Shown here: positions 27,572-46,923 of the stretch, one piece after another
Numbering within the stretch: the stretch's first letter is position 1
How the letters are laid out: each line of letters starts with the position of its first letter
From: an uncultured Actinomycetota bacterium
GTDB lineage: Bacteria > Actinomycetota > Actinomycetes > Mycobacteriales > Nakamurellaceae
Assembly: GCA_963696065.1 (NCBI GenBank)
Contig: CAVOIF010000007.1
Span: 208,707-272,706, forward strand
Direction: 5' to 3'
Length of the DNA: 64,000 nucleotides
Notes under the pieces: generated by a model
What the model was told of the DNA's origin: nothing
Seen by the model: the letters and a program-made list of their open reading frames with translations, nothing else
Databases searched by the model: none
Translations under genes and position numbers: made by a program

Positions 27572-29083
27572 ATGACTGTGCGTCGCATCATGGGTACCGA
27601 AGTCGAGTACGGCATCTCGGTGCCCGGGGAGCCCGGGGTCAACCCGGTGATTTCCTCCACCCAGGTCGTTCTCGCCTACGCCGCATCGGTGGCGGCGCCC
27701 CGGGCCCGACGCCCGAGATGGGACTACGAGGTCGAGTCGCCGCTGCGGGACGCCCGTGGGTACGACCTCTCCGCGCTGTTCGGGGCGGCCGAGCCCGACG
27801 TCGACGACATCGGCGCCGCGAACGTCATCCTGTCCAACGGGGCACGGCTCTACGTCGATCATGCGCACCCGGAGTTCTCCGCGCCCGAGGTCACCAACCC
27901 GCTGGACGGCGTGCTGTACGACAAGGCCGGCGAAAGGGTGATGGAGGCGGCCGCCCGGTTGGCGGCGGCGTTGCCGGCCTCGAAGCCGATCCAGATGTAC
28001 AAGAACAACGTCGACGGCAAGGGCGCGTCCTACGGCACCCACGAGAACTACCTGTGCAGTCGCGACACCCCCTTCCCGGCCATCATCTCCGGATTGACGC
28101 CGTTCTTCGCCTCCCGCCAGGTGTTCTCGGGTGCCGGCCGCGTCGGGATCGGGCCGTCCGGTCAGACCGACGGGTTCCAACTCGGCCAGCGCTCGGACTA
28201 CATCGAGGTGGAGGTCGGCCTGGAGACGACCCTCAAGCGGGGCATCATCAACACCCGCGACGAGCCGCACGCCGACGCCGACAAGCACCGTCGGCTGCAC
28301 GTCATCATCGGCGACGCGAACCTCGCCGAGATCGCCACCTACCTCAAGCTCGGCACCGCGGCCCTGGTGCTGTCGATGATCGAGTCCGGCTGGGCGTTGC
28401 CATCTGTCGAGTTGGCGCATCCGGTCGCCGCGGTGCACCAGATCTCCCACGACCCGACGCTGAAGGTCACCGTGCCGCTCACCGACGGCCGGCGGCTCAC
28501 CGGGCTCGACGTGCAGAAGGCCTACCACGAGGCGGCCGCCAAGTTCGTCGCCGCGGAGTACGGCGATGACGTCGACGAGCAGACCGCCGATGTGCTCGAC
28601 CGGTGGATCAGCGTGCTGGACCGGCTCGGCGGCGATCCGCTCGATCTGGCCGACGAACTCGACTGGCCGGCGAAACTACGTCTGCTGGAGGGTTTCCGCA
28701 GCCGTGACGGGCTCTCCTGGGGCGCGCACCGGCTGGCGCTGGTCGACCTGCAGTACGCCGACGTCCGCAAGGACAAGGGCCTGTACAACCGGCTGGTCTT
28801 CCGTGGCTCGATGAAGACGTTGGTGACGGAGGAGGCCGTGCTGGAAGCGATGACCACGCCGCCGGAGGACACCAGGGCCTACTTCCGAGGCCGGTGCGTG
28901 GCCAAGTACGCGGACCGGTTGGCAGCCGCATCCTGGGACTCGGTGATCTTCGACATCGGCCGCGACTCGTTGGTCAGGATCCCCACCATGGAACCGACCC
29001 GCGGCACCAAGGCCCATGTCGGTGCGCTGTTGGACGCCGCCGACGACGCGACCGAACTGGTGGATGCGCTGACCAGGCAGTAG
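27572..29083 (+). CDS. dop: Pup deamidase/depupylase
   Basis: '[12 protein letters not shown]', '[13 protein letters not shown]', '[12 protein letters not shown]', 'RRLHVIIGD'; upstream of pup. Confidence 0.96.
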
Positions 29084-31169: not shown

Positions 31170-31471
31170 GCCGGACCCGAGGTTGCCCTCGAGTGACCCA
31201 GATCACATCACATCAAGCATTCCGAGCGCCTGACGCGGTATCAGCCTCGACCGGGGTCGCTCTTGGTGGGTGTTCGGACAGGCCTGACTGAGGGGTACAG
31301 GTCCTTCCCGAGCGGAATGTGCCGCCCCTAAGCTGCTGGTAGGAGAACACAGGCAGCTCACAACTACCCGTCATGTCCGGGAGGACCCGTGCGCGAGAAC
31401 GATTTCTCGACCGCCCGTGCCGTCCCGGACGTGGCGGGTTGCCCGCTGCCCAGGCACGGGAGGTCTTCACA

Positions 31472-32212
31472 GTGATCGCGGCCGATCAGGGCACCACCGT
31501 CACCGGCTCGGTGGCTGCGTCATCGACGGCCGGCACCGCCCTGCCCACGTCATCCGTCGTTCCGGCCGACGCGGTTCCCAGCCAGCCGGGTCCGCAGTCA
31601 GGCGTCACGGTGAACGAACCGGCCGTAACCGATCAGACACGGCGCCGGCGGCAGGATGTCGGTGATCTGGTGGTCCGGGCCGGGACGGCGTTCGACGAGT
31701 ACCGGCAGGGTGTGCCGGGCGCCATCGACACTCTGGTCCGGCTGGTGAGCCCGTTGCTCTGGCACACCGCACGGCAGTGCGGATTGACGGCGGCGGAGTC
31801 GGAGGACGTCGTCCAGCAGACCTTCATGTCGCTGGTGCGCAGCAAGGACAGCGTGAGCGATCCGCTGGCCGTTGTCCGCTGGCTGACGGTGAGCCTGCGC
31901 CGGCTGGCCTGGCGCGAGCGGGCGAACAGCGCCAAACGATCGAATGAAGAGCCGACCGACGACGACCTGCCGAGAGCACCGTCGGCCGAACACACCGCCG
32001 TGCTCAGCGATCAGCAGCGACGACTGTGGGAGATGGTCGCCGAATTGTCCGAACGGTGCCGCCGATTGCTGGCGGTGATCGCCTTTGCACCACGACCTGA
32101 TTACGCCGCAATCGCAGTGGATCTGGGCATACCGGTGGGATCCATCGGTCCAACACGAGGGCGCTGCTTGGCAAAGCTGCGGGCTCGACTCGACGGGGGA
32201 GACTGGACATGA
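31472..32212 (+). CDS. ECF-type RNA polymerase sigma factor with low-complexity N-terminal extension
   Basis: Region 2 'ESEDVVQQTFMSL...WL'; region 4 'LSERCRRLL...YAAIAVDLGIPVGSIGPTRGRCLAKLR'. GGGAGG RBS 8 nt before GTG 31472. Confidence 0.9.
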   Translation: MIAADQGTTVTGSVAASSTAGTALPTSSVVPADAVPSQPGPQSGVTVNEPAVTDQTRRRRQDVGDLVVRAGTAFDEYRQGVPGAIDTLVRLVSPLLWHTARQCGLTAAESEDVVQQTFMSLVRSKDSVSDPLAVVRWLTVSLRRLAWRERANSAKRSNEEPTDDDLPRAPSAEHTAVLSDQQRRLWEMVAELSERCRRLLAVIAFAPRPDYAAIAVDLGIPVGSIGPTRGRCLAKLRARLDGGDWT

Positions 32213-32787
32213 CGGCATCTGATGGCGTCCCCGATCGGACGGGTGTGGCCAACACCGCCGAAGGCGTTTTGGCGTTCGATCTGGATGACGAACTGGATCC
32301 CGACGCAGGCCCGATGGATCGCGCGGACCTGCGGATCCTCAGCGACCTGTTGGCCATCTACGACACGGTCGATCCGATGCCCGAGATGCTGCCTGACCTG
32401 GTGCTTTTCGGGCTGGACGCGCAGAGCCTGGACGCCGAGTTCGCCCGTCTGGTGGAGTCCGAACTCTCCGTCTCCGGCGCGTCCGGCACCCGGTCCGTCG
32501 AGCACGCCCGACGGGTCACGTTCGCCAGCGACAGCCTGACGGTGATGGTCGTGGTGAACCCGCAACGCGACGGTTCGGTGCGGCTGGACGGTTGGGCAGC
32601 TCCCGGCGGGCGGTTGCACGCCGAGCTGCGGGTGGGTGACCAGACGCTGACCGCCGAGTGCGACGAGTCCGGGCGGTTCGTCTTCGACGCCGTCCCGGCC
32701 GGCCCGGCGCAACTGGTGCTGCATCCGACCCTGGATTCCGACCCGTCGCTGACCCTGCCCGTGGTGACCCCCGCGGTGCACCTGTAG
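32209..32787 (+). CDS. Soluble hypothetical protein coupled to the ECF sigma (C-terminal beta-sandwich, carboxypeptidase-regulatory-like); candidate anti-sigma
   Basis: ATGA overlap with the sigma stop; acidic helical N-terminus; 'RLDGWAAP...DESGRFVFDAVPAGPAQL'; no TM segment. Confidence 0.7.
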   Translation: MTASDGVPDRTGVANTAEGVLAFDLDDELDPDAGPMDRADLRILSDLLAIYDTVDPMPEMLPDLVLFGLDAQSLDAEFARLVESELSVSGASGTRSVEHARRVTFASDSLTVMVVVNPQRDGSVRLDGWAAPGGRLHAELRVGDQTLTAECDESGRFVFDAVPAGPAQLVLHPTLDSDPSLTLPVVTPAVHL

Positions 32788-32823
32788 CTGTGGAATCAGC
32801 CGGCGAGAACAACCACTGAATCG

Positions 32824-34353
32824 ATGACCATTCCGTTCGATCTCGCCGAGCGCGGCAGTGCCCACACTGGGTTGGCCGTCCGCGCGTTCGCCGGCCGGAT
32901 CCTGGATGCCCCGTCGATCAGCGCGTCCGACTTCGCCCGGGTACCGACGGCCTACAACGCCGAAGGACTGATCGTCGCCGCCCGCGATGCGACCACTGCA
33001 GGTGCGGTCGGATCCGCCCTGCGCGAGGTGCTGGCCGAGTTCTCCTGTGCGGCAGACGGACCCGACTGGCTGACCGGTGATCGGGCGAGCCTGGACGCGA
33101 ACCAGATTCCCGGCGTGCTGACGTCCGGAGTCCGGATCGTGCCTGGTGACGGAACGTTCGACGGGGGTCGCGGCGGCGGGCCGGATCCGTGGTCGGTGGT
33201 GCAGGAACTGCGGCGGCGGCTCGGCCCCGACCGGGCCGGCTCGGTGAGCCTGAACCATCTGATGACCTCCGCAGAACAGGTGGGCGGCAATCCGTTCGCG
33301 CTCGGCCACGGCCGGATAGGGCTGGACGGCTACGGGGTCAGCGGGGCGGGCGGGCACGGACCGGTGACGTTGACGGTGCAGCCGCCCCGAACAAGTCGGA
33401 CCGGGCGTCGTCCTCGGGTGGTGGTGCTCGACACCGGTGTCGGCGACCATCCCTGGTTCGCCGCCGACCCGCCGGACACCACCATCAGGTTCGACGACGG
33501 CCGGGTGGTGGGACCCGACGTCGCTAGCGGACACCGCCGCGATGAACTGCCCGACAGCCCGACTGACGATCACGACACCGCAGCGGTCGACCCGCTGCTG
33601 GGCAGCCTGCCGACGCACACCGGCCACGGCACGTTCATCGCCGGCCTGCTCCGGCAGATCAGCCCGGACGCGGACATCGTGGCGCTCACCGTGATGCAGG
33701 CGAACGGCATCGTTCCGGAGCACAAACTGATCCGGGCGCTGGATGTGGTGCGGTCCCGTCAGCGGGATAGCCCTGGCTGGGCCGATGCGATCGTGTTGTC
33801 GCTCGGCTATTACGCGGAGACGGGGGAGGACGTCCGCTACACCTCAGGGCTGAAGGACATCCTGTTGGACCTGGGTCGGCTCGGCGTCGCGGTGTTCGCG
33901 GCCGCCGGCAATGATGCCTCGAGTCGACCGTCGTATCCGGCGGCGTTTGCGATCGACCCGGAATTCGCCGATCCCGCCGTCCTGCCGCTGGTCTCGGTCG
34001 CGGCACTGGGCCCCGACGGCTCCGTGGCGCCGTTCTCCAACGATGGACCGTGGGTGACGAGCGAGGCAACCGGGGTCAACCTGGTCTCGGCGTCGCCCCG
34101 GCTGCCCGACGGCGGGGCGAGAGCGGGTCTGGCCTTCCTCGGGCCGGGTGGCCGGGTGCGATCGCTGGTCGACCCGGACGACTTCCGCGGCTTCGCGGCC
34201 TGGAGTGGAACATCCTTCGCGGCACCGGTTCTCGCCGGCCGGTACCTGAACTCCCTGATTGCGACCGGCTTCCCGGCCGGTAACGCCGAACGCCGTGAGC
34301 TGCTCCCGATCGGTCGTAGCTCCCGACCAGAGTTGGCCGTGATCGGGCGATGA
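32824..34353 (+). CDS. S8 (subtilisin-like) serine peptidase 1, no signal peptide
   Basis: Catalytic triad D 'VVLDTG' (33430), H 'HGTFIAG' (33625), S 'SGTSFAAP' (34213); oxyanion N 'AAGND' (33910); about 195-aa N-terminal prodomain. Confidence 0.93.
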   Translation: MTIPFDLAERGSAHTGLAVRAFAGRILDAPSISASDFARVPTAYNAEGLIVAARDATTAGAVGSALREVLAEFSCAADGPDWLTGDRASLDANQIPGVLTSGVRIVPGDGTFDGGRGGGPDPWSVVQELRRRLGPDRAGSVSLNHLMTSAEQVGGNPFALGHGRIGLDGYGVSGAGGHGPVTLTVQPPRTSRTGRRPRVVVLDTGVGDHPWFAADPPDTTIRFDDGRVVGPDVASGHRRDELPDSPTDDHDTAAVDPLLGSLPTHTGHGTFIAGLLRQISPDADIVALTVMQANGIVPEHKLIRALDVVRSRQRDSPGWADAIVLSLGYYAETGEDVRYTSGLKDILLDLGRLGVAVFAAAGNDASSRPSYPAAFAIDPEFADPAVLPLVSVAALGPDGSVAPFSNDGPWVTSEATGVNLVSASPRLPDGGARAGLAFLGPGGRVRSLVDPDDFRGFAAWSGTSFAAPVLAGRYLNSLIATGFPAGNAERRELLPIGRSSRPELAVIGR

Positions 34354-34428
34354 ATCCGCGGCCTTGACGGCGCACTGTTCAACACTGCTGACCCGGTCAG
34401 CCCGTGATTTCCCACCTGGAGGCGCATT

Positions 34429-36082
34429 GTGAACCAGCCCGTGAACCCCGATGGCCCGAACGACCGCGCCCGCGACCAGGGGCGGCGCTTCCTGGAGGAT
34501 CCGCTCACCCGGTTCGATGCCCGGGTGCTGGATCCGTCGACTGCGGTCCGGCTGACGACGGGTGAGGCTCCCTCGGCCACCGTTTACGTCGGCGACACGT
34601 TGCTGGTCACGGCGAGCGACCGCGATGACGCCGAAGAATTGTTGGAGTTGCTGCGCAAGGCCGTCGAGCTGTCCGGGCTGCCGCTGCGATGGTTGGAGCG
34701 AAATCCGTTTCGGCCCAGCGACGACCCGGAACACGATCGGCGGGCCAGACTGCTCACCCTGGCCGCCGAATTCAAGTTGCCGCTGGTCTTCCCGGTGCGT
34801 TTCGAGTCAGCGTCGGACGGACCCGCGCCGGCCGTCGACGTCTGGCCGTTGCTGCAGGCGATCAGGCAGGCCGCCTTCGACGACGGAGACATGCGCCGGC
34901 TGAGCCGAGCGGTTGGGCTGAACCACCTGATGTCGCGGCGGCCGCGAATCAGTGGGAATCCGTTCATGCGGGCACAGCGAGCATCTTCGGCGATCCCTTC
35001 AGCGTGGCATGGCCACCGATCAACGGCAATCCCTTCACCGAGGGGATGGCGGCCGGACTCGAGCAGCTATGCTTCTGCCGGATCCGGTGGTCGAGGACCG
35101 GTCTCCGTTGTGCTTCCCCCACCGCTTCGATCGTCGGCGGACGCCAGCGTCCGCACGTCGTCGTTCTGGACACCGGACTGGGTGCGCACCCCTGGTTCGT
35201 AGCGCGGCCGATGCAGTGGGACTGCAGTTCGCGGACCCTGTGAAGCCAGGTGATCCATCGCTGATCGGTGGGCATGGATCCGAGACAACGGCGATCATCC
35301 GCACCGACCCGGAGGCAGACGGCGCCATCGCCGACTCGATGACCGGTCTGCTCGGCACAGCCACTCCGGACATGGGACATTCATCGCGGGTCTGATTGCG
35401 GCAGGCGTGTGCAGATGCCGACATCACGGCGATCCGGGTGATGGACAGCGACGGGGTCGTTCCAGAAATCGTGCTCACCGATGCGCTGATCGGATCGGTG
35501 CCATCGAGTCCAGAAGGCGAGGTCGATTCGACGCGCTGGTGCTGTCTCTGGGCTATTACTCGGAGACCGGCGACGACGTGACCTACACGGCCGGCCTGCG
35601 CGAACTGTTGCTCGCACTCGCTGCCGCCGGGAGCGGCGATTTTCTGTGCGGCGGGCAATGACTCGACCATGCGACGGAGCTATCCAGCAGCCTTCGCCGA
35701 CGATCCTCGCGTTCACCAACGGCAGCTCACATGCCGATGGCCAGTGTTGCAGCGCTGAATCCCGACTCGACAGTGGCGCTGTTTTCGAACGATGGTCCGT
35801 GGGTCAACGCCGAAGCGCGGGTGCCAACCTGGTGTCGACGGCACCGACCTCCGCCCAGGGTGCCTGGTCTCAGGACACCTCGTTCGAAGGACCACTGAGA
35901 GGCAGCCGAGGCACGGTCGATCCGGATTCCTTTGTCGGCGGTTTCGCGACCTGGAGCGGCACCAGCTTCGCCGCACCGGTTCTCGCCGGACGCTACGTCG
36001 CCAACTTCGCGACAAGGGTCCTCGGACCGTCAAGGACGCGCAGTCGCTGATCGGGCTCGGTCGAACCTCGATCGAGAACTAG
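34429..36082 (+). pseudogene. S8 serine peptidase 2, paralog of peptidase 1, multiply frameshifted in this sequence (error or decay)
   Basis: GGAGG RBS plus GTG. Motifs are spread over different frames: 'LNHLM', 'VVVLDTG' (35169), 'HSGHGTFIAGLI' (35371), 'LSLGYYSETGDDVTY', 'FSNDGPWV', 'WSGTSFAAPVLAG', end 'LIGLGRTSIEN*'. Confidence 0.82.
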
Positions 36083-36142
36083 CAGATGCGCGGCGTGTTC
36101 GGTCGTCCGACATCGATCGTCCCGAAGCGTGATGCTGGATTG

Positions 36143-38739
36143 GTGAGTCGCGTCCGTTCAGGAGACGTCGAGACCCCGAGCGGTCGCACGTCGAGGCTGT
36201 CCGCCGGATGTGGCGACGGGCGCGCCTCGAGGGAGATCGAGGTCATCCGTCTCTCGCCTCCTCCTGGGCGCAAAGGGCCCTGGAGCGGCTTCGGCGGGAC
36301 TGCCCTGACGAAAGCCTGCTACATGCGAGAGTTCTGCTGACCCTGGCGAATCAGATGTCCGAGCTCGGAGATCCGGCAAGATCGACCGCACTGTTGGACG
36401 AGGCGGAGGGGTTGCACCCCGCAGCGACCATCTGGTGCGAGATGAATCGCGGAGTTGTTGCAGGCGCGAATCGGACGGACAGCGGAAGCGATCCGCCACT
36501 TCGAGGTGGCGATCGCGGCTTGCACGACGACACTCTCGACGACGGCGCGGAGCTCTCGCGATCGCCCTGATGAACCGTGGGGTCCTGCACATGTTCGCGG
36601 GTCGACTCGAGAGCGCACAGGCAGACACCGAGGGTGCGCCGGGTGGCACGCGCTGACGGGCGTCGACGTGCTCGCTCTTCATGGCCACCCACAACCTTGG
36701 TTACATCCGTTACCTCGACCGGGGATCTACCAGGCGCTCTGCACACGATGGCGCCGGCCACCGACGTTCATCCAGGTGCCGCGACGGGTGTCCGGCACTC
36801 GACCGCGCTCGGGTCATTCTGTCGTCCGGATTGTTCGGCGAGGCGAAGGACTTCGCTGACGCAGGCCATCGAGTCCTTCGAAAGAACAGAGCGACCGCCG
36901 ACCTCGCCGACGCCCTGTGGTGCGGGCCGAGATCGAGGTTCTCATCGGTGATGCCTCCATCGGCAATCACCAAGACCAGACGAGCGGCGCGGATCGCCGT
37001 ATCGGCGCGGGAACGATCGGCAGCGCTGATCGTCGAGATCCTCGGCCAACGGGCCGCCGCTCGTCTCGGCGAATCGGCACCATCCCGATCCGCGGGCACG
37101 TCGTGACGCCGAACGCGCAGAAGATCTGGCGCGACCGTCTACAGGCGCGGACATGTCGAAGACGCGTCGGGCCGTCCGGTTGCTCGAGGCAGAAGCGTTG
37201 CTCGACACCGGTGATGACGCCGGCGCCGAGAAGCTGGTGATCGAGGTGCGCGCCGAACGACCGGTCGACCTGCCGCTGGCGTGCCCGACTGCACGCCAGG
37301 CTGCTCGCCGGCCGGATCGCATCGTCACCGGACGTCGGACGCGCCGGCCTGCCGCAGGTCCGTCGAGGGCTCGATGATCTCGCCGATTTCCAGGCGCAGG
37401 TTCGGATCACAGGATCTGCAATCGGCAGCCGCGTGCACGGTCGGGAGCTGACCAGACTCGGCCTGCGAACCGCTGTCGCCACTGGATCACCCGCCGCGAT
37501 CCTGCAATGGTTGGAACGCGCAAGAGCCGTCACCACGAGATTGCCCGCCATCCGACCACCGGTCGACCCAGTCCTCGCAGAGGATCTGGGCGCGCTTTGC
37601 GCATGGCCGACGAGCACGCACGGTCCGCCCTGTTGTACGGCGGCCGAGATCCACAGCGGCGGATCGTCGGGTCGCCGAACTGCGGAGGCGGGTACGGGCC
37701 ACGCTCGTGGACCGCGTCCGGGATGGGGAAGGCCGATAGGCCACCGACATTGACCGCGGTGCAACGAGCATTGGCCGAGCACCGACCGGATGCGGGAGTG
37801 GTCGCGCTGTTCGTCGGGGGCGGGCAGATCCATGCGTTGGTGATCACCGCCGGGCGCGCCGTGCACCGGGTGCTGGCCGAGCGGAACGGCATGGAACGGC
37901 AGCGGCATCGGCTGCAGAGCGACCTTGACCTGCTGGCCGAGGAGCGGGTCCCGGACGCTGTGAGGGCGGTGGCCGCCCGTTCGTTGGCGTCCTCCCTGCA
38001 GCAGTTCTCGGACGTGTTCACCCCGGTGCTCGACGTCGTCGGCGCCGGTCCGGTGCTGATCGCCGCCGTCGGTCAGATGGCGACCGTGCCGTGGCTGCTG
38101 CTACCGGGACTGGCCGGACGGCCGGTGACGGTCTCGTCGTCGGTGACCAGGGCGCTGGCCGGGTTGACGACTGCTCGATCCCGCCCGGCCGATCACGGGG
38201 TGCTGGTCGCCGCCGGTCCCGGACTGTCGAACGGGGAGAAGGAAGCCTGCGCCGTTGCCGCCCTGCACCCGGGCTCGCGCCTGCTGGTCGGCGCGGACGC
38301 GACCGGTCGAGCCGTCCTCGACGCCATCCCGCAGGCGGGCCTGGTGCACATCGCCGCGCACGGCCACCACGAGGCGGAGAACCCGTTGTTCTCCGGTGTG
38401 CAGTTCGCCGACGGACTGCTGTTCGGCTACGACCTGGCGCCGAATCCAACCCTGCCCGGCCAGGTGGTGCTGTCCAGCTGTGATGTCGGGCAGACCGACG
38501 ACCGGCCCGGTGGCGAGCCACTCGGACTGGTTGCTGCGCTGGTCCGCAGCGGGGTGCCGACGGTGATCAGCGGGACCAGCAAGATCTCTGACACCGTCGC
38601 CGAGGCCACCATGGTCGGCTACCACGAGCGACTGATCGACGGTGCCAGTCCGGCCACCGCGCTGGCGGAAGCGGTGGCGGCGGCGGGCGCGGATTCCGGG
38701 TTGCCGGCGCCGTTCAGTTGCTTCGGTGCCGGCCTCTGA
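36143..38739 (+). pseudogene. TPR-CHAT (caspase-like) protease 1; 5' half frameshifted, C-terminal CHAT domain intact; start approximate
   Basis: Fragments match the 44263 paralog in order ('THNLG', 'LDRARV', 'DLADAL', 'AVRLLEAEALL', 'HGRELTRLGLRTA...ILQWLER'). Catalytic His 'HIAAHG' (38359) and Cys 'LSSCD' (38479). Confidence 0.85.
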
Positions 38740-38800: not shown

Positions 38801-39574
38801 CTATGCGTCACGCCACCGGAGCATCACCGCGGCGGCAACCATCGCAGTGGTGGCCCACGCAGCAAGGACACCCATCCCCATCCAGGGGCTGATCGCGAGG
38901 CTCTGCAGGTCGACGGTCGACTGAATGCCGAGGCCGGCATTCGTGGGTGCAATCTGCTCGAGGCGCCGCTTCCAATCCGGGTCGCCGACTACCTGGATCA
39001 GAATCGGAAAGAGGTACAGCAGTCCGAGGACGACGCCGACGGCCACCGCAGTGTCTCTGATCAGGGTCGCCATCCCGAGGCTGAGCAGACCGATCAAAGC
39101 GAGGTAGAGAATCGACCCCGCTGTCGCCCGCAGCGTTTGCGGGTCGGTCAGGGACAGCACAGTGAAACCGTTGGTTGCGGTGAAACCGTTGCCTGGCAGG
39201 GTGAGCCTGGCCAGCATCAGCGACCCGAGCACGGCGACAGTGCCGGCGAGCAGCACCATGCCGGTGAGCACAGTGGCCTTCGCCGCCAGCATCGGCCACC
39301 GCCGAGGAATGGCCGCCAGGGTGCTGCGGATCATCCCCGAGCTGTACTCGCCGGTGATGATCAACACCCCGAGCACGGCCACGACCGCCTGGCCCGCCTG
39401 AACTCCGACGAGGCTGATCTTCACCTGATCCTGCAGTTCCCGGGCCTGGAAATGCACCGCTGACGTGGCCAACCAGCTCAGTCCGACCGTCAGCACCACC
39501 ACCACGAGCAGCAGCCATCCGGTCCCCGGGACAGTGCGGAGCTTGGTCCATTCCGCGTGCAGCGCGGATTTCAC
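38801..39574 (-). CDS. ABC transporter permease (LanE/G-like ABC-2 membrane subunit)
   Basis: 'LHAEWTKLRT', 'ITGEYSSGMIRSTLAAIPRR', 'LAAKA'; GTG start overlaps the upstream stop. Confidence 0.88.
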   Translation of the reverse strand: MKSALHAEWTKLRTVPGTGWLLLVVVVLTVGLSWLATSAVHFQARELQDQVKISLVGVQAGQAVVAVLGVLIITGEYSSGMIRSTLAAIPRRWPMLAAKATVLTGMVLLAGTVAVLGSLMLARLTLPGNGFTATNGFTVLSLTDPQTLRATAGSILYLALIGLLSLGMATLIRDTAVAVGVVLGLLYLFPILIQVVGDPDWKRRLEQIAPTNAGLGIQSTVDLQSLAISPWMGMGVLAAWATTAMVAAAVMLRWRDA

Positions 39575-41181
39575 GCGTCCCGCCGCTGCAGTGCGACATT
39601 CGCCAGGCCGAGAGCCAGTGCCGTCCAGATGCAGAGCACCGCAAAGCCGGCCCAGGGTGCCAGCGGGAAGAACCCGATCGACGGCAGATAGGCGGTGTCG
39701 ACCTGTGCGTACTCCGGCGTGCTTTGCGTCACCGCGAAACCGGCGGCCGGGGTGATCCGCAGCAACCACTGCGCGGGATCGGCAGGCAGCACGGACGCGA
39801 CCGCGAGCAGATACGGCAGCACGGTCAGCAGGATGGTGACGGTCAGCGCGGCGGCGCTCCGCCGCAGGATGGTCCCGACGGCCAGGGCGAACACGGCGGC
39901 AAGAGCAAGGAGCGCGGCGGTCCCGACGACCACCCGCACTTCGGTGAGTAACGAGACCGGGAGAACGATCCCGCCCGCGCTTCGTCGCAGCTGGGTGATG
40001 ACAACCACCGCGATCAGAGCCGAGACCAATCCCACGACAAACGTGGCAGTGCCAAGAACGACGGCTTTCGCGGCCAACACCCGGCCACGGCGAGGACTGG
40101 CGATGAACGTGGTGCGGATCAGGCCCCGCCGGAATTCCGCAGTCACGAACGATGTGCTGACCACCAGGATGGCGACCAATCCGGCAAAGACCCCGACCAG
40201 ACCGCGTTCGATGGTGTTCCCGCCGGGACCGGCAACGGCCGGGGCGATGTCGCCGGATCCGGTCATGGTGAAGGTGCCGTCCGATTCGACGAACTGCTGC
40301 ACCGCGGGGGCTGCGGCAACATTCCGGTCCGGGCCGTTTCCGCCGGCCTCACCCGGCTGGTCGGAACCGCTGGAGTCCTCGCCGTCGATGCCCAGCACGG
40401 TCCACTCGCCTCCGGAGGCCCCTCCTTCCAGGTCGACGTTGTCGAACGCCGCGGTTGCCTGGCTCTGATCACCGATCGAGTTGGTGCCGCCGACTTGTTG
40501 TGTGGTGACCTCGTATTCCGGAGACGCAACGAACATCCCCGCGTGCACCGTGGCGGGATTCCCGGTCAGCTGTGCGGTCCCGACCGGGATCCAGGTCCTC
40601 CCGTCGGTGGATTCGTATCCGGTCACGGTGTCGCCGGCCCTGGTCAGTCGCAGCCAGTGCGGCTCGGTCGACGGGATCTGTGCGCCGGCAACATCATTCG
40701 TGAAATTGTCCTGCATGCGAACACCGTGCCCGCCGGTGAGCATGACGGCTGCGTACGGCGATCCCTGAGTGCCGCTCTCCTTGATGATCACCCCCGCCTT
40801 CGCCCATGGCACCACGCCGGGCCGGGTTCTGCCCGCCACCGGGTCCGCCCCCTCCGGAGCGTCGAAATCAGGAATCCTGCCGGTCAGTGAACTCACCCGG
40901 GCGGTGATGCTGCCGTCACCCGTCAGCTCCTGCTGGACGAAGACGAAGCGGTCCACCACAGCCTCACCGTTCGGGCCGACGACAACACAGTCGGTCGCGG
41001 CGCCGCACGGCGTCGGCCCGCCCAGCACGGTGAAACCGAGCAGGACGGTCAGCACCGCTGCGAGCAACAGGCCGATCACCCAGCCCCGCACGGTCCGGAA
41101 CTTTGTCCACTCCGATCTGACCAACTGCGCGAAACCAGCTTCGGTGACGACGATCTCGGATCGATACGCGGTGGCGGTCAT
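39571..41181 (-). CDS. ABC transporter permease with a large inserted extracytoplasmic ConA/LamG-like (DUF1349-like) domain
   Basis: 'LVRSEWTKFRT', TM1, then about 250 aa soluble ('GDGSITARV', 'WAKAGVIIK', 'HWLRLTRAGDTVTGYESTDG'), then 'TAEFRRGLIRTTF' and five TMs. Confidence 0.85.
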   Translation of the reverse strand: MTATAYRSEIVVTEAGFAQLVRSEWTKFRTVRGWVIGLLLAAVLTVLLGFTVLGGPTPCGAATDCVVVGPNGEAVVDRFVFVQQELTGDGSITARVSSLTGRIPDFDAPEGADPVAGRTRPGVVPWAKAGVIIKESGTQGSPYAAVMLTGGHGVRMQDNFTNDVAGAQIPSTEPHWLRLTRAGDTVTGYESTDGRTWIPVGTAQLTGNPATVHAGMFVASPEYEVTTQQVGGTNSIGDQSQATAAFDNVDLEGGASGGEWTVLGIDGEDSSGSDQPGEAGGNGPDRNVAAAPAVQQFVESDGTFTMTGSGDIAPAVAGPGGNTIERGLVGVFAGLVAILVVSTSFVTAEFRRGLIRTTFIASPRRGRVLAAKAVVLGTATFVVGLVSALIAVVVITQLRRSAGGIVLPVSLLTEVRVVVGTAALLALAAVFALAVGTILRRSAAALTVTILLTVLPYLLAVASVLPADPAQWLLRITPAAGFAVTQSTPEYAQVDTAYLPSIGFFPLAPWAGFAVLCIWTALALGLANVALQRRDA

Positions 41182-42149
41182 CGGGTGGACTCCCGGCTCA
41201 GGGCCGGGTCGCCGACCGGGAGTTCGGCTGCCTGCAATTCGCCTGCCCGAAACTCGACGGTGTTCCTGGTCAGGTCCATGTAGGCCTCCTCGAGGGTCGC
41301 GCGGTGCGCGGCCACCTCGGAGAACGGCACGGCGGCGTCGTTCATCAGGGCAATGACCCGCCCCGCCGGCAGACCGGACACCGTCAGGGTGTCGGGTCCG
41401 GTGACAGCAACGGTGGCCCCGGCATTCGCCAGCGCCGACATGGCGGATGACCGTTCGGTGGTGCGCACGGTGATCTGGCCACTTGAGGCCGTCGCTATCA
41501 GCTCGGCAACACTGGTGTCGGCGACCAGTCGTCCGCGGCCGATCACCACCAGATGCCCGGCGGTGTCCTGCAGTTCGGCCATCAGGTGGCTCGACACCAG
41601 GATCGCGCGGCCCTCGTCGGCCAGTGATCGCAGCAGCGTGCGGATCCAGACGACACCCTCCGGATCCAGCCCGTTGAACGGCTCGTCGAGGATCAGGATC
41701 GCCGGATCGCCGAGCAGGGCTGCGGCGATTCCCAGTCGCTGACGCATGCCCAACGAATAGCCACCCGCCCGTCGGCCGGCCGCGCTCTGCAGCCCCACCT
41801 GTTCGACCACCTGGTCGACCCGCTGTCCGGTCAGGCCCTGTGAGTGGGCGAGCCAGAGCAGGTGGTTGCGACCGGTGCGGCTGGCCTGCAGCGCCCCGGC
41901 GTCCAGCAGCGCGCCGACGTGCTGCAATGGGCGATGCAGCGTGCGGTAGGGCCGGCCGCCGACCAACGCGGTTCCTTCGTCGAGCGCATCCAGGCCGAGG
42001 ATGGCCCGCATGGTGGTGGACTTTCCGGCACCGTTGGGCCCGACGAAGCCGGTGACCTGCCCGGGCTGCACGGTGAAGGACAACCCGTCGAGTGCTACCG
42101 CCGACCCGAAACGTTTCCGCAGGCCACTGACTTCGATGCTCGCTTCCAT
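41178..42149 (-). CDS. ABC transporter ATP-binding protein (BcrA/LanF-like)
   Basis: GPNGAGKS, YSLGMRQRLG, LILDEP, 'VSSHLMAE'. Confidence 0.93.
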   Translation of the reverse strand: MEASIEVSGLRKRFGSAVALDGLSFTVQPGQVTGFVGPNGAGKSTTMRAILGLDALDEGTALVGGRPYRTLHRPLQHVGALLDAGALQASRTGRNHLLWLAHSQGLTGQRVDQVVEQVGLQSAAGRRAGGYSLGMRQRLGIAAALLGDPAILILDEPFNGLDPEGVVWIRTLLRSLADEGRAILVSSHLMAELQDTAGHLVVIGRGRLVADTSVAELIATASSGQITVRTTERSSAMSALANAGATVAVTGPDTLTVSGLPAGRVIALMNDAAVPFSEVAAHRATLEEAYMDLTRNTVEFRAGELQAAELPVGDPALSRESTR

Positions 42150-42184
42150 TCCGGAAACGCTAGGCAGCCGGGCCGGGCTCGTCG

Positions 42185-42230
42185 TCACCCCCGGGAGCGA
42201 TGTTTCGCTGGACATCCCTCACGGGAGGGA
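42185..42230. promoter_or_regulatory. Pair of imperfect palindromes, candidate response-regulator binding sites
   Basis: TCACCCCCGGGAGCGA (42185-42200) and TCCCTCACGGGAGGGA (42215-42230): 12/16 identical, 30-bp spacing, between the divergent ABC and two-component genes. Confidence 0.5.
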
Positions 42231-42256
42231 CGCCGACGAGATCGCCGACGGTCACA

Positions 42257-43456: not shown

Positions 43457-44187
43457 CGCCGCCCGGACAACCGAGGTTCCCGGTTCGGATCGTGGTCGCC
43501 GACGACCAGGGGATTGTGCGGGAGGGCTTCGCCTCACTGCTCGCCACTCAAGCGGATTTCGAGGTGGTCGGCACCGCGGCCGACGGCGCCCAGGCGGTTC
43601 GGCTGTGCACCGAACTCGAACCCGACGTCATCCTGATGGACATCCGGATGCCCGGGATGGACGGAATCGCCGCAACCCGGGAACTCAGCGGGCCGGGTAG
43701 CCGGCCCGATGGGCCCCGAATTCTCATCCTGACCACCTTTGACCTGGACGAATATGTCTATGACGCGCTGCGTGCCGGGGCCAGTGGCTTTCTGCTCAAG
43801 GACGTCACCGCGGAACGGCTGTTCGAGGCCGTCCGGGTGATCGCCACCGGCGACGCACTGCTCGCGCCCGCCGTGACCCGGAGACTGATCGGGGAATTCG
43901 CAGCGCTCCGGGTCAGACCCGAAACCGCCTCCGCTGCAGCCCGATCCGGGCTCGATCTGGCCGCCCTGACGCCGCGGGAGACCCAGGTGCTGCGGCTGGT
44001 CGCCGAGGGACTGTCCAATGCTGAAATCGCCCAGCGGCTCGTCGTGTCCGAGGAGACGGTGAAGACGCACGTCAGCAGAGTGCTGAGCAAACTCGGTCTG
44101 CGAGACCGCACCCAGGCAGTTGTCGTCGCGTACGAGTCGGGCCTGGTGGTGCCCGGCACTCTGCCGCCACGACCACATGAAGGGTGA
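43453..44187 (+). CDS. NarL/LuxR family response regulator
   Basis: 'VVADD', 'ILMDIRMP', 'GFLLKD', 'LTPRETQVL...GLSNAEIA...TVKTHV'. Confidence 0.95.
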
Positions 44188-44262: not shown

Positions 44263-46923
44263 GTGACGACGAGTGACCGGTTTGTCGCCGAGCCCACGCG
44301 GTCCAGTTCGGCACTCGGTTCCGCGGCCGATCTCTGGGTCCGGGCCCGGAATCGGGTCGATTTCGGCCGCCCGGCCACCGGGCTGAAGTTGGGTGCGCGG
44401 GCCCTGGAACACCTGCGCACCGAGCACGTCCCGGAGGGCCAGGCGGCGGTGCTGCGCTCGCGGATCCTGGTCACCATGGCCGACGCCCAGGTCGAACTGG
44501 GCCGCACCGCCGAGGCCGACGACCTGCTGGATGCCGCGCTGCAGCAGAGCGCGACGGCGTTGCCGATGGTGCAGGCCTCCCGCGGAGTGTTGCTGGCCAG
44601 GACGGGCCGGCTGCCCGAGGCCCGGCAGCAACTGGATGCGGGAGTGGCCGCGTTGTCGCAGAGCAGCCGGCCGAGTGCGAACCTGGTGCGTGCGCTGCTG
44701 TGGCGGGGCCTGCTGCACCTGAGCGAGGCGAGACTGGATGCGGCGCAGGCGGACTGCGAGGTGGTCGTCGAGCTCGGCCGATCGACCGGCATGGACCCGG
44801 CCGTCGCGGTGGCCACCCACAATCTCGGTCTGGTGCGGTGGGTCTCCGGCGATCTTCCGGGTGCGTTGCACGAGATGGCGCTCGCCGACGAGGTCGCCCA
44901 CGATGTGCGCGCCGGCATCCGATCCCTCGATCGGGCCCGCGTGCTGCTGGCCGCCGGTCTGCTACTGGAGGCCAGGGAGTTCGCCGACCGGGCGGAGCGG
45001 GTGTTCGCCAGCGAACGGGCCAAAGTCGATCTCGCGGACGCCTTGCTGGTGCAGGCGGAGATCGACATCGTCGCTCGGCGGGCCAAGGCGGCGCGGTCGG
45101 CGGCCCGCCGGTCCGCGCGCAACTACGCCCTGGCCGGGTACGAACGCGGCGTGCTCGCGGCCAGGGTGATGGAGGTCAGGGCAGAGGCGAACGTCCGGGC
45201 CGCCATCCGGCCGTTGCCGCGCCGGCAGGCGCTGCAGGATGCGAGTGCGGCCGAGGCGCTGGTCACCGATCTGCTGACTGCCGGTCAACAGGAGGATGCC
45301 CGGGCGGTGCGGCTGCTGCAGGCAGAGGCGTTGCTGCAGGCCGGCGACCTCCCCGCTGCGGAGACCGCTGCCGAGGCGGCCGCCGGTCTCGGAGCCGGCA
45401 ACGGATCGGCCAACCGGGCGGCCCGGGTGCCGTTGATCGCCACCGAGCTGCACACCCAGGTCATTGCGGCCCGCATCGAGCTCGCCCACGGCCGCCGGTC
45501 GTCCGGGTTGGCGCACATCAGGCGCGGGCTGGACGACCTTGCCGCCTACCAGGCCCGCTTCGGCTCCCAGGACCTGCAATCGGCGTCCGCCGTGCACGGT
45601 AGCGAGCTGACCAGGTTGGGGCTGCGCACTGCACTGCAGACTCGCTCACCGGCGGCGATCCTGCAGTGGCTGGAACGATCCCGCGCGGCGAGCACCAGGT
45701 TGGCCGCGGTCCGTCCGTCGATGGACGGTGTGCTGGCCCGGGAGCTGAGCAAGCTGCGGATGGCCTCCTACCGCGCCCGCATGGCGTTGCTGGCCGGGGC
45801 CGCCGACCCGGACATCGAGGACGAGGTCGACCAGTTGCGGCGCCGGGTGCGGTCCCGTTCCTGGGGCGTGGTGGGCACCGGCGCGGTGAACCGGCCGTTG
45901 CCGTTGGCCGCCGTGCAGCGCCGGCTGGCGGACACCGGCGAGCGGATCAGCGTGGTCGCGCCGTTCCGCGGCAACGGCCAGTTCCATGCGTTGGTGATCA
46001 CCTCCGGCACCGCCCGCTACGTCCCGCTCGGACCGGATTTCGGCCTCGAGTACCACCTGCAGCGGATCATCGGCGACCTGAACGTGTTGGCCGATCACCG
46101 GATCATGCAGGCCCTTCGGTCGGTGGCGGACGTGTCGCTGCGGGCCGGGCTGGGCAGGGTCGCGCGGTTCATCGTCGATCCGCTGCTGCCGTTTGTCGAT
46201 CAAGGACCGATCGTGGTGGCGGCGGCCGGGTCGGCCGCCATCGTGCCCTGGGCGCTGTTGCCCGGGCTGGACGGTCGCGCGGTGTCTGTCAGTCCGTCGG
46301 TGACCGCCGCGGTCGCCCACCTCGGCCAGACCCGGCAGGTCCACCGGCGCGGGGTGCTGGCGGTCGCCGGCCCGGAGGTGCCGCACGCCGGGCGTGAGGT
46401 CGACAGTGTGCTGGCCGCCTACCGGCCGGCGCCGACGGACGCGTCGACGAACGGCTCGACCAGCCAACTCACCGGTCCGGCCGCCACCGGACGGGCCGTG
46501 CTGGAGGCGATCCCGGCCGGCGGGCTGCTGCACATCGCCGCCCACGGCCATCACGAGCCGGACAACCCGCTCTTCTCCGGAGTGCTGCTGGCGGACGGTC
46601 TGTTGTACGGGTACGACGTCGCGCCGAACCCGTCGATCCCGGCCCAGGTCGTGCTCTCCAGCTGTGACGTCGGCCGCACCGACGACCGGCCGGGCAGCGA
46701 GCCGCTCGGCCTGGTCGCGGCCCTGTTGCGCAGCGGGGTGTCGACGGTGATCGCCGGCACCAGCCGGGTGTCCGATCAGGTGGCGGCGAGCGTGATGGCT
46801 GCCTACCACCAGCGGTTGAGTGCCGACCAGGCGCCGGCCATCGCGCTGGCCGGGGCGATCGCGACCACCGCCGGCAGCGGCGCCGATCCGGCGCCCTTCA
46901 CCTGTTTCGGGGCCGGCCTGTAG
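44263..46923 (+). CDS. TPR-CHAT (caspase-like) protease 2, intact, 886 aa
   Basis: Ala/Leu/Arg-rich helical repeats with 'THNLG'; CHAT 'VPWALLPGL', His 'HIAAHG' (46543), Cys 'LSSCD' (46663), end 'PAPFTCFGAG'. Confidence 0.92.
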   Translation: MTTSDRFVAEPTRSSSALGSAADLWVRARNRVDFGRPATGLKLGARALEHLRTEHVPEGQAAVLRSRILVTMADAQVELGRTAEADDLLDAALQQSATALPMVQASRGVLLARTGRLPEARQQLDAGVAALSQSSRPSANLVRALLWRGLLHLSEARLDAAQADCEVVVELGRSTGMDPAVAVATHNLGLVRWVSGDLPGALHEMALADEVAHDVRAGIRSLDRARVLLAAGLLLEAREFADRAERVFASERAKVDLADALLVQAEIDIVARRAKAARSAARRSARNYALAGYERGVLAARVMEVRAEANVRAAIRPLPRRQALQDASAAEALVTDLLTAGQQEDARAVRLLQAEALLQAGDLPAAETAAEAAAGLGAGNGSANRAARVPLIATELHTQVIAARIELAHGRRSSGLAHIRRGLDDLAAYQARFGSQDLQSASAVHGSELTRLGLRTALQTRSPAAILQWLERSRAASTRLAAVRPSMDGVLARELSKLRMASYRARMALLAGAADPDIEDEVDQLRRRVRSRSWGVVGTGAVNRPLPLAAVQRRLADTGERISVVAPFRGNGQFHALVITSGTARYVPLGPDFGLEYHLQRIIGDLNVLADHRIMQALRSVADVSLRAGLGRVARFIVDPLLPFVDQGPIVVAAAGSAAIVPWALLPGLDGRAVSVSPSVTAAVAHLGQTRQVHRRGVLAVAGPEVPHAGREVDSVLAAYRPAPTDASTNGSTSQLTGPAATGRAVLEAIPAGGLLHIAAHGHHEPDNPLFSGVLLADGLLYGYDVAPNPSIPAQVVLSSCDVGRTDDRPGSEPLGLVAALLRSGVSTVIAGTSRVSDQVAASVMAAYHQRLSADQAPAIALAGAIATTAGSGADPAPFTCFGAGL

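What the first reader, a model, noticed from the sequence alone, without database searches (positions are those of the whole stretch)
31472..38739. ECF sigma - partner - subtilase - subtilase - TPR-CHAT operon: putative CRISPR-independent protease-to-sigma signalling cascade
Seen: five co-directional, tightly packed genes. Both subtilases show D/H/S triad motifs and lack signal peptides. The CHAT domain keeps its His-Cys dyad behind a long TPR-like region. Nothing is membrane-anchored. Established: in type III-E CRISPR systems a TPR-CHAT protease (Csx29) cleaves Csx30, which binds a sigma factor, and type III-B SAVED-CHAT activates a second protease by cleavage. Inference: this is the same logic without Cas genes. 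A TPR sensor detects an intracellular cue (phage protein, damage, peptide) and activates CHAT, which matures the subtilase zymogens and/or destroys the sigma partner, giving an ECF transcriptional response or cell death. I know of no experimental characterisation of this gene set.
Basis: partly seen in the sequence, partly recalled or inferred. Interest (0 to 1): 0.92.

Follow-up and report, generated by a model that had tools for sequence, protein, structure and literature searches.

The report
Protease-gated sigma factor gene cassette
This is a conserved actinobacterial gene cassette that couples a stress-type sigma factor to a subtilisin-like and a caspase-like protease; it is already catalogued as the untested "ECF54" gene context, and two of its genes are garbled by frameshifts here, probably assembly noise over a strain-variable segment.

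Summary
The genes are real. The cluster is an ECF sigma (31472-32212), a coupled 192-aa partner, subtilase S8a, a second subtilase S8b and a TPR-CHAT, in a Nakamurella genome just downstream of dop-prcB-prcA.

As written in the window, S8b and TPR-CHAT#1 are not open frames. They need 26-27 frame corrections and contain one stop, all inside one block (about 34,930-37,705) that ignores gene borders.

A short-read contig that is 99-100% identical over the 2.8 kb to the left carries an intact 550-aa S8b with a different repeat allele. I therefore read the lesions as consensus noise over a strain-variable segment (about 80%), not as decay (about 20%). Reads could not be checked.

A second, intact TPR-CHAT lies at 44263-46923.

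Sigma, partner, S8 and TPR-CHAT co-occur in 65 of 78 loci across Actinomycetota, in two gene orders. The literature already lists this context as ECF54, proposed to be regulated by proteolysis and never tested. PADLOC does not hold it.

New structural leads:
- The subtilase is a pro-subtilisin-like zymogen with species-specific tandem hexapeptide repeats between prodomain and catalytic domain.
- The partner is a helical hairpin, an exposed linker with an invariant Arg, and a beta-sandwich.

The most likely function is a cytoplasmic, protease-gated sigma switch. Who cleaves whom is inferred.

The parts
31238..31345 (+). Conserved non-coding block upstream of the sigma gene (GTATCAG ... GTGTTCGGAAAGGCCTGACTGAGGGGTGCAGG ... 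CCACCCCTA AGCTGCTGGT); probable promoter or operator region
   Evidence: It is conserved in all 10 sigma-first Nakamurella loci and found only there by blastn. There is no Rfam match, and no covariation supports an RNA fold.
31389..31475 (+). 28-codon upstream ORF with its own GGAGGA Shine-Dalgarno; its TGA overlaps the sigma GTG start (GTGA)
   Evidence: An equivalent uORF of 24-37 codons ends on the sigma start in 8 of 10 sigma-first Nakamurella loci. Function not tested.
31472..32212 (+). ECF sigma factor, 246 aa, with an N-terminal extension of about 80 aa before sigma-2
   Evidence: TIGR02937 57.8 bits; Sigma70_r2. The GTG start is preceded by GGGAGG and conserved in relatives.
32209..32787 (+). 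Partner protein, 192 aa, acidic, with no family hit. Layout: disordered 1-37, helix 38-54, DPxP turn, helix 61-88, exposed linker 89-97 with invariant R95, beta-sandwich 102-192. Putative soluble anti-sigma or adaptor.
   Evidence: Alignment of 43 orthologues; AlphaFold2 mean pLDDT 82.7; no significant PDB fold match. The family has 288 cluster representatives at E<=1e-30.
32824..34353 (+). Subtilase S8a, 509 aa, intact. Layout: prodomain-like fold 24-148 ending in the LNHLM strand, disordered linker 149-197 with one degenerate repeat (GGNPFALGHGR), catalytic domain 198-500 (D203, H268, N363, S464).
   Evidence: Pfam S8; invariant residues; AlphaFold2 pTM 0.83. Best PDB fold matches are pro-forms: PCSK9 and unautoprocessed pro-Tk-subtilisin, with about 470 aligned columns. 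It falls in a derived duplicate clade.
34429..36082 (+). Subtilase S8b, the ancestral type that carries the repeats; not an open frame here from about 34,960 onward (11-12 frameshifts, no stop)
   Evidence: Frameshift-aware alignments to L018 and L096 S8b. An intact 550-aa copy with three GNPYTKGMA repeats lies on L096, which is 99-100% identical to the window up to about 34,900.
34930..37705 (.). Block holding every lesion. It runs from the start of the S8b repeat cassette to the end of the TPR/helical region of TPR-CHAT#1. It is a divergent allele plus indel noise.
   Evidence: Identity to L096 drops from 100% to 55-98% per 60 nt at about 34,900. Third-position divergence to L095 is 0.48 left of 37,705 and 0.16 right of it. 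There are no lesions in 34429-34930 or 37705-38739.
36086..38739 (+). TPR-CHAT#1. The TPR/helical part is broken (15 frameshifts, 1 stop, 36170-37701). The C-terminal CHAT-domain ORF 37507-38739 is open and keeps the His and Cys.
   Evidence: Every frameshift in 37282-37701 is an indel relative to the open 491-aa ORF of L095.
44263..46923 (+). TPR-CHAT#2, 886 aa, intact. It is 81% identical to the second TPR-CHAT of the closest intact relative (L018). A 5.4-kb transporter/two-component module separates it from the cassette.

Best explanation
The locus is the Nakamurella form of the actinobacterial 'ECF54-type' module: ECF sigma, a small acidic partner, a cytoplasmic pro-subtilase and a TPR-CHAT caspase-like protease. 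In Nakamurella the subtilase and the TPR-CHAT are each duplicated in tandem.

Shown:
- The four families travel together across Actinomycetota in two gene orders.
- The catalytic residues of both proteases are invariant.
- None of the products has an export signal.
- The subtilase has a pro-subtilisin architecture. A cassette of species-specific tandem peptide repeats sits exactly at the prodomain/catalytic junction.
- The partner is a helical hairpin and a beta-sandwich joined by an exposed linker with an invariant arginine.

Inferred mechanism:
- The partner holds the sigma factor inactive.
- A cytoplasmic cue sensed by the TPR region activates CHAT.
- Proteolysis of the partner at its linker, by CHAT or by the subtilase once its prodomain/repeat segment is removed, frees the sigma factor.
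- The freed sigma factor then transcribes its own operon and further targets.
- The repeat peptides are the likely ligand or pseudosubstrate of the cognate TPR.

The broken frames:
- The frameshifts in S8b and TPR-CHAT#1 in this window are most likely consensus errors. They lie where co-existing strains carry different alleles of the 'repeat cassette to TPR' segment.
- The organism therefore probably has all six genes intact.
For: Module:
- All four families are present in 65 of 78 loci. Both orders occur: sigma-partner-S8-CHAT and S8-sigma-partner-CHAT.
- There are 416 S8-family loci among GTDB species genomes.
- The context is named in PMC8999054 as ECF54, with proteolysis proposed.

Artefact reading:
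- All 26-27 frameshifts and the single stop fall in one 2.78-kb block within the 4.31 kb of the two genes. If two dead genes decayed uniformly, the chance of that is about 0.64^27, roughly 7e-6 (hand calculation).
- Only one stop accompanies the frameshifts.
- After frame correction, GC3 of the block is 0.72, the same as the intact L018 orthologues at 0.75.
- Codon positions still differ in the order 3 >> 1, 2.
- Contig L096 (record name k141_..., typical of a short-read assembler) is 99-100% identical over 32108-34900. It carries an intact S8b with GNPYTKGMA x3.
- The window's block carries garbled NPFMRGT-like repeats, one of them hybrid-looking (GNPFTEGMAAG).
- The flanks are identical to L096, so there was no time for 26 independent indels to arise.
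- The sister MAG L021 has 12 frameshifts in the same segment, at mostly different positions.
Against: - No cleavage, binding or transcription was tested, and no pairwise complex prediction was run.
- The partner's helical hairpin gave no fold match to known anti-sigma domains. The ECF54 literature says no anti-sigma is recognisable.
- The authors of the ECF classification warn that conserved neighbours may be targets rather than regulators.
- The block differs from L096 mainly by substitutions (about 15%), not only by indels. It is therefore a real second allele and could be a dead one.
- The frameshifts are not at homopolymers.
- Contig L095 of a relative carries only the C-terminal part of TPR-CHAT#1 next to unrelated genes. 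Truncation of this gene may therefore occur in the clade.
Confidence: 0.55

Rival explanations
1. S8b and TPR-CHAT#1 are true pseudogenes. This lineage is losing one subtilase/CHAT pair and keeps S8a plus TPR-CHAT#2, possibly with a stand-alone CHAT-domain remnant from ATG 37507.
For: - The sequence as deposited has 26-27 frameshifts and a stop.
- The sister MAG L021 is also broken in the same segment.
- L095 shows a truncated TPR-CHAT#1 in a relative.
- First and second codon positions are somewhat more divergent than under normal constraint: 0.115/0.111/0.276 for positions 1/2/3 against L096.
- Terminal branches are about three times longer than for L018.
Against: - The lesions are confined to a block that ignores gene borders.
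- There is one stop against 26-27 frameshifts, and no AT-ward decay.
- The flanks are 99-100% identical to a contig with an intact S8b, which leaves no time for decay.
- The frameshift positions are mostly not shared with L021.
Confidence: 0.2
2. The proteases and the partner are the regulon (output) of the sigma factor rather than its regulators. The sigma factor would be controlled elsewhere, for example through its 80-aa N-terminal extension, the uORF, or transcription. It would switch on a cytoplasmic protease pair that remodels the proteome or kills the cell.
For: - Casas-Pastor et al. state that regulators and targets cannot be told apart from context.
- A conserved upstream block and uORF suggest control at the level of expression.
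- There is no recognisable anti-sigma domain.
Against: - Sigma and partner are translationally coupled (ATGA overlap) and stay adjacent in both gene orders, as sigma/anti-sigma pairs do.
- The two characterised CHAT/ECF systems both use proteolysis upstream of the sigma factor.
Confidence: 0.2
3. The cassette is an anti-phage abortive-infection system. TPR-CHAT senses a phage protein and unleashes the subtilase as a lethal effector, and the sigma factor is a side arm.
For: - There is analogy with CRISPR-linked CHAT proteases.
- The 'repeat cassette to TPR' segment differs as a block between otherwise identical strains, a pattern typical of conflict or recognition loci.
- The module is patchily distributed (416 loci among 185,579 species genomes).
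Against: - No PADLOC model matches beyond a weak generic subtilase hit.
- In all 24 Nakamurella-clade loci the cassette sits at one fixed chromosomal place next to dop-prcB-prcA. Its S8 tree shows orderly paralogue clades, so it does not look like a mobile defence island.
- No mobile-element genes lie beside it.
Confidence: 0.15
4. The subtilases are secreted nutritional proteases that happen to lie beside a sigma factor.
For: Most S8 proteases of soil actinobacteria are secreted (general knowledge).
Against: - There is no N-terminal signal-like segment.
- Linkage to sigma, partner and CHAT holds across genera.
- This is a distinct S8 subfamily with weak Pfam scores (44-52 bits) and its own prodomain and repeat cassette.
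Confidence: 0.03

Closest known systems
ECF54 group of ECF sigma factors and its conserved gene context (Huang et al. 2015; Casas-Pastor et al. 2021, PMC7826278; reviewed in PMC8999054)
   Same: It is actinobacterial and has no recognisable anti-sigma. Its neighbours carry subtilase, CHAT and carboxypeptidase(-regulatory-like) domains, and regulation by proteolysis has been proposed. The beta-sandwich of the partner is presumably the 'carboxypeptidase' domain of those catalogues.
   Different: Those papers contain nothing experimental. They do not describe the pro-subtilisin architecture, the tandem peptide repeats, the invariant Arg linker of the partner, the Nakamurella duplication or the allelic block. 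I could not run the ECF Hub models, so formal assignment of this sigma factor to ECF54 rests on context.
Type III-E Craspase arm: Cas7-11/Csx29 (TPR-CHAT), Csx30, Csx31, CASP-sigma (PMC10028731)
   Same: A TPR-CHAT protease and an ECF-like sigma factor are encoded together with a sigma-binding protein that has two domains joined by flexible segments. Cleavage relieves the inhibition.
   Different: There is no Cas7-11, crRNA or CRISPR array. The partner is unrelated in size and sequence (192 aa against 565 aa). A subtilase is an obligatory fourth component. The activating signal is unknown.
DdvA-DdvS of Myxococcus xanthus (PMC11506125)
   Same: It is a CRISPR-independent pairing of a TPR-CHAT module with an ECF sigma factor, with proteolysis proposed to free the sigma factor.
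   Different: DdvA is one transmembrane protein: a zinc anti-sigma domain, a TM helix and a periplasmic TPR-CHAT with an incomplete His-Cys site. Here the TPR-CHAT is soluble with a complete dyad. The candidate anti-sigma is a separate soluble protein without a zinc motif, and a subtilase is added.
Type III-B SAVED-CHAT / PCaspase cascade (bioRxiv 10.1101/2023.06.23.546230)
   Same: A CHAT protease activates a second protease by cleavage, so it is a two-protease relay.
   Different: The sensor there is a cOA-binding SAVED domain and the second protease is a caspase-like enzyme. Here the sensor is TPR and the second protease is a pro-subtilase.
Pro-subtilisins with an N-terminal inhibitory prodomain (pro-Tk-subtilisin 2E1P, PCSK9)
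   Same: The predicted S8a fold aligns over prodomain plus catalytic domain with unprocessed pro-forms. The conserved L(D/N)HL(M) strand ends the prodomain where autoprocessing sites lie.
   Different: The protein is cytoplasmic. A cassette of 3-8 identical species-specific hexapeptides (for example NPFTAG x6, SPYVNG x8, DPLHHG x7) is inserted at the junction.

Membership tests
ECF54-type module | ECF (group 4) sigma factor with sigma-2 and sigma-4 only | tested here: met
   TIGR02937 57.8 bits, above the 42.9 cut-off, residues 84-240; Sigma70_r2.
ECF54-type module | Actinobacterial origin | tested here: met
   Record titles of related loci name Nakamurella, Nocardioides, Occultella, Rathayibacter, Phytohabitans, Catenulispora and others. 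The window has 69% G+C and Pup-proteasome genes.
ECF54-type module | Conserved neighbours with subtilase, CHAT and carboxypeptidase-regulatory-like domains | tested here: met
   All four families are present in 65 of 78 loci. The partner's C-terminal domain is a beta-sandwish-type fold, i.e. a beta-sandwich. Its profile also hits long beta-sandwich repeat proteins.
ECF54-type module | No recognisable anti-sigma factor | tested here: met
   The partner has no Pfam, NCBIfam or PADLOC hit and no PDB fold match to anti-sigma domains.
ECF54-type module | Placement in the ECF54 clade by the ECF Hub models or phylogeny | not testable with these tools
   The models are not on hand. The named model protein (Geodermatophilus amargosae SFT86700.1) was not among the 120 listed homologues, all of which are Nakamurella-like.
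Type III-E Craspase | Cas7-11 effector with CRISPR array next to the TPR-CHAT | tested here: not met
   There is no CRISPR repeat family or tandem array in the 64-kb window. The neighbours are proteasome, transporter, two-component and CNNM genes.
Type III-E Craspase | Csx30 and Csx31 homologues | tested here: inconclusive
   The partner has no hit in any library used. No dedicated Csx30 or Csx31 profile comparison was made.
DdvA-type anti-sigma | Zinc-binding anti-sigma domain and TM helix fused to the TPR-CHAT | tested here: not met
   The TPR-CHAT proteins start directly with the TPR/helical region. There is no N-terminal hydrophobic helix. The partner has no HxxxCxxC-type motif.
Peptidase S8 (subtilase) | Asp-His-Ser triad and oxyanion Asn in the canonical order | tested here: met
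   D203, H268, N363 and S464 are invariant in 59 sequences; Pfam PF00082; fold match to subtilisins.
CHAT (clan CD, caspase-like) | Catalytic His (HG) and Cys | tested here: met
   H..HG.H and S.C are invariant in 78 proteins. They are present in TPR-CHAT#2 and in the open C-terminal ORF of TPR-CHAT#1; Pfam PF12770.
Known anti-phage defence systems (PADLOC-DB 2.0) | Match of the components to a catalogued system | tested here: not met
   The only hit is a weak generic subtilase match (22.5 bits). There is nothing for sigma, partner or either CHAT.

The most novel reading that the evidence does not exclude
The subtilase's tandem peptide repeats and the TPR sensor of the adjacent CHAT protease form an allele-matched recognition pair. 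The pair is exchanged as one hypervariable block between otherwise identical strains. Here the GNPYTKGMA x3 allele (L096) and an NPFMRGT-like allele (window) sit on flanks that are 99-100% identical. The module would then be a strain-specific, 'pherotype'-like intracellular peptide/receptor system. It would set off a caspase-like-to-subtilase protease relay that gates an ECF sigma factor, serving self/non-self discrimination, conflict or developmental control.
Probability: 0.25. Interest if true: 0.8.

Novelty: new member of a known kind. Interest (0 to 1): 0.5.

Why it matters
If the inferred mechanism holds, ECF54 modules would be a widespread, CRISPR-independent relative of the Craspase and DdvA logic. 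They would be a soluble caspase-like protease and a zymogen subtilase controlling a sigma factor in hundreds of actinobacterial species.

The leads from this work turn a catalogue entry into experiments that can be done with four genes:
- the prodomain plus repeat cassette of the subtilase;
- the invariant Arg linker in the partner;
- the block-wise allelic exchange of the repeats together with the TPR.

For this window, the practical lesson is that the apparent pseudogenes are probably an assembly artefact at a strain-variable locus.

Tried and rejected
- Rfam on the sigma leader and on the whole window: no hit.
- Consensus fold of the conserved leader: no covariation, so I dropped the riboswitch or leader-RNA idea.
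- PADLOC: nothing.
- Fold search with the partner model: only generic beta-sandwiches such as adaptin-ear/GAE domains and CBMs, none significant.
- Functional link to the Pup-proteasome operon: rejected. Dop, PrcB and PrcA lie beside the cassette in 24 of 24 Nakamurella-clade loci and in 0 of 54 others, so this is lineage synteny only.
- Homopolymer errors as the cause of the frameshifts: not supported.
- Simple neutral decay: rejected as the main reading, on lesion clustering, the near absence of stops, unchanged GC3 and the flanks identical to L096.
- Pairing S8 paralogues with CHAT paralogues by co-loss: the trees do not allow it. Single-copy genomes keep the S8b type, but the CHAT duplications are not cleanly orthologous across sub-clades.
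- Direct ECF54 assignment through the named model protein: it was not among the listed homologues.
- Huang et al. 2015 is not held in the library.
- A genome-wide scan for similarly phase-scrambled blocks was too noisy to use.

Full report
**What is in the window**

The window is 69% G+C and comes from a Nakamurella genome (record titles of related loci; window = G000:C7:208707-272706). Upstream of the finding lie dop (27572-29083), prcB and prcA. The genes then follow on the + strand:
- An ECF sigma factor at 31472-32212 (TIGR02937 57.8 bits).
- A 192-aa partner at 32209-32787. It overlaps the sigma stop and has no family hit.
- Subtilase S8a at 32824-34353, 509 aa and intact.
- A second subtilase, S8b, at 34429-36082.
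- A TPR-CHAT at 36086-38739.

However, S8b and the N-terminal 60% of the TPR-CHAT are not open frames. The ORF lists show only fragments in alternating frames, and tblastn with intact orthologues needs several frames.

In relatives it directly follows the first one. Here a 5.4-kb module of ABC-2 transporter, histidine kinase and LuxR regulator separates the two.

**How broken, and is it real?**

I wrote a frameshift-aware protein-to-DNA alignment for this question.
- Against the closest intact relative (L018), S8b needs 11 frameshifts and no stop. TPR-CHAT#1 needs 15 frameshifts and 1 stop. S8a and TPR-CHAT#2 need none.
- Every lesion lies between about 34,930 and 37,705. The first 500 nt of S8b and the last 1,035 nt of TPR-CHAT#1 are clean.
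- If two dead genes decayed uniformly, the chance of that pattern is about 7e-6 (hand calculation).
- After frame correction the block shows no AT-ward drift. Its GC3 is 0.72, against 0.75 in the intact L018 orthologues.
- The block still differs from relatives mainly at third codon positions.

The decisive comparison came from the protein searches.
- Contig L096 (ENA ERZ27397450, k141_3321035, 4,383 nt) is 99-100% identical to the window from 32,108 to about 34,900.
- From there it falls abruptly to 55-98% identity per 60 nt, with 38 indels, up to its end.
- On L096, S8b is an intact 550-aa gene with three perfect GNPYTKGMA repeats.
- The window carries a garbled set resembling the NPFMRGT repeats of L018. 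One unit looks like a hybrid (GNPFTEGMAAG).
- On the right side, contig L095 (89% identical) has an open 491-aa CHAT ORF. Every window frameshift between 37,282 and 37,701 is an indel relative to it.
- Third-position divergence to L095 jumps from 0.16 to 0.48 at about 37,705.
- The sister MAG L021 (92% nt identity in the flanks) has 12 frameshifts in the same segment, at mostly different positions.

The flanks are identical to L096, so there has been no time for 26 indels to accumulate naturally. I therefore read the block as a real second allele of a strain-variable segment, overlaid with consensus noise from mixed alleles or low coverage. I give this about 80%. True pseudogenes get about 20%.

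**Is the gene set a unit?**

- Searching GTDB species genomes with the S8 alignment gave 416 loci, of which 78 were kept.
- HMMs built from the Nakamurella proteins find sigma, partner, S8 and TPR-CHAT together in 65 of the 78 loci. Nine of the 13 exceptions are cut by contig ends.
- Two gene orders occur: sigma-partner-S8-CHAT and S8-sigma-partner-CHAT. Rearrangement with retained linkage argues for function.
- In Nakamurella, S8 and CHAT are duplicated. Single-copy genomes keep the S8b type, and S8a is a derived clade that has lost the repeats.
- Adjacency to the proteasome genes is found only in Nakamurella.

**Anatomy of the parts**

*S8*
- D203, H268, N363 and S464 are invariant, and so is H145 in an L(D/N)HL(M) motif.
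- AlphaFold2 (pTM 0.83) gives a beta-alpha-beta-beta-alpha-beta domain at 24-148 ending in that motif, a disordered linker at 149-197 and the catalytic domain.
- The best PDB matches are unprocessed pro-forms (PCSK9, pro-Tk-subtilisin) aligned over both domains.
- In the S8b-type proteins the linker is a cassette of 3-8 identical, species-specific peptides: NPFTAG x6, SPYVNG x8, DPLHHG x7, PYTQPH x6 and GNPYTKGMA x3.

*Partner*
- The layout is a disordered acidic N-terminus, helix 38-54, a conserved DPxP turn, helix 61-88, a low-confidence linker 89-97 containing the invariant R95, and a confident beta-sandwich.
- There is no significant fold match.
- The family is sizeable, with 288 cluster representatives at E<=1e-30.

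*TPR-CHAT*
- The His (H..HG.H) and Cys (S.C) are invariant in 78 proteins. Both are kept in both window copies.

*Export*
- No product has an N-terminal hydrophobic segment.

**Mechanism**

The composition, linkage, catalytic competence, cytoplasmic location and architectures are shown. The rest is inferred.

My preferred reading has these steps:
- The partner is a soluble anti-sigma-like inhibitor, bound through its helical hairpin.
- Its exposed Arg linker is a protease site.
- The subtilase is a zymogen whose junction repeats engage the TPR of the cognate CHAT.
- Activation of CHAT by an unknown cytoplasmic cue starts a relay that ends in loss of the partner and release of the sigma factor.

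The block-wise allelic exchange runs from the first repeat of S8b to the end of the TPR region of the adjacent CHAT. This is what would be expected if peptide and receptor must match.

The rivals are that the proteases are outputs rather than regulators, that the cassette is an abortive-infection defence system, that the pseudogenes are real, and that the subtilases are secreted nutritional proteases. Each is listed with its evidence in the rival explanations.

**Comparison with what is known**

- The review PMC8999054 says proteolytic control has been proposed for ECF54 because carboxypeptidase, subtilase and CHAT proteins are conserved in its context.
- Casas-Pastor et al. list ECF54 as lacking any clear regulator.
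- The combination is therefore catalogued but untested. I found no experimental paper.
- Functionally the nearest studied systems are Craspase (Csx29/Csx30/CASP-sigma), DdvA-DdvS and SAVED-CHAT/PCaspase. The defining features of each are not met here (no Cas7-11 or array, no fused zinc anti-sigma or TM helix, no SAVED domain), so this is not a member of those families.
- Earlier notes of this scan describe the same cassette in other actinobacteria and pointed me to ECF54 and to the repeats. I checked both points independently.

**Verdict**

This is a real, conserved, uncharacterised protease/sigma module. It is a new member of a known but untested kind. The broken genes are probably an assembly artefact at a hypervariable segment, and that segment is the most interesting new lead.

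Noticed in passing
window 31389-31475: A 28-codon upstream ORF with its own Shine-Dalgarno ends in a TGA that overlaps the sigma GTG start. An equivalent uORF occurs in 8 of 10 sigma-first Nakamurella loci, and in L034 it is fused in frame to the sigma gene.
   Followed up: partly
window 31238-31345: A non-coding block of about 100 nt upstream of the sigma gene is strongly conserved. It has no Rfam hit and no covariation, and it occurs only in sigma-first Nakamurella loci. It may hold the promoter or an operator.
   Followed up: partly
window 38801-44187: Two ABC-2 permeases and an ABC ATPase (- strand) plus a HisKA_3 kinase and a LuxR-type response regulator sit between the two TPR-CHAT genes. 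In G010, G004 and L018 the two CHAT genes are adjacent. L095 shares the junction of the CHAT gene with the permease.
   Followed up: partly
L095 1-3100: In a relative that is 89% identical, only the C-terminal 491 aa of TPR-CHAT#1 are present, next to GntR and sugar-ABC genes that look fragmented. This is either a truncating rearrangement or a chimeric 1x contig.
   Followed up: partly
L021 10724; L023, L028, L034, L088 CHAT genes: Several other metagenome-assembled relatives also show split S8 or CHAT genes, whereas isolate genomes (N. silvestris, N. endophytica, Nocardioides, Occultella) have them intact. This fits assembly trouble at this locus.
   Followed up: no
G000 genome, e.g. C3:1,008,000-1,150,403, C1:1-120,000, C6:774,000-868,000: Many stretches of at least 1.5 kb lack a long high-GC3 ORF, and they cluster near contig ends. 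About two dozen regions show codon-phase switching as dense as the block studied here. Whether they are noisy sequence, islands or short genes was not examined.
   Followed up: no
window 61856-62222: Tandem 15-87-nt repeats rich in CAG/GGC/TAC lie inside a coding region (a Q/G/Y/P-rich low-complexity protein segment).
   Followed up: no
S8a clade, L011-L037: The duplicated subtilase S8a of Nakamurella has lost the tandem repeats. It keeps one degenerate copy (GGNPFA.GHGR), conserved across the clade, and evolves faster than S8b.
   Followed up: partly
window 47028-49627: Two CNNM/CorC-type transporter genes follow TPR-CHAT#2, as they do in 18 of 24 Nakamurella-clade loci. This is synteny and probably unrelated to the cassette.
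   Followed up: no
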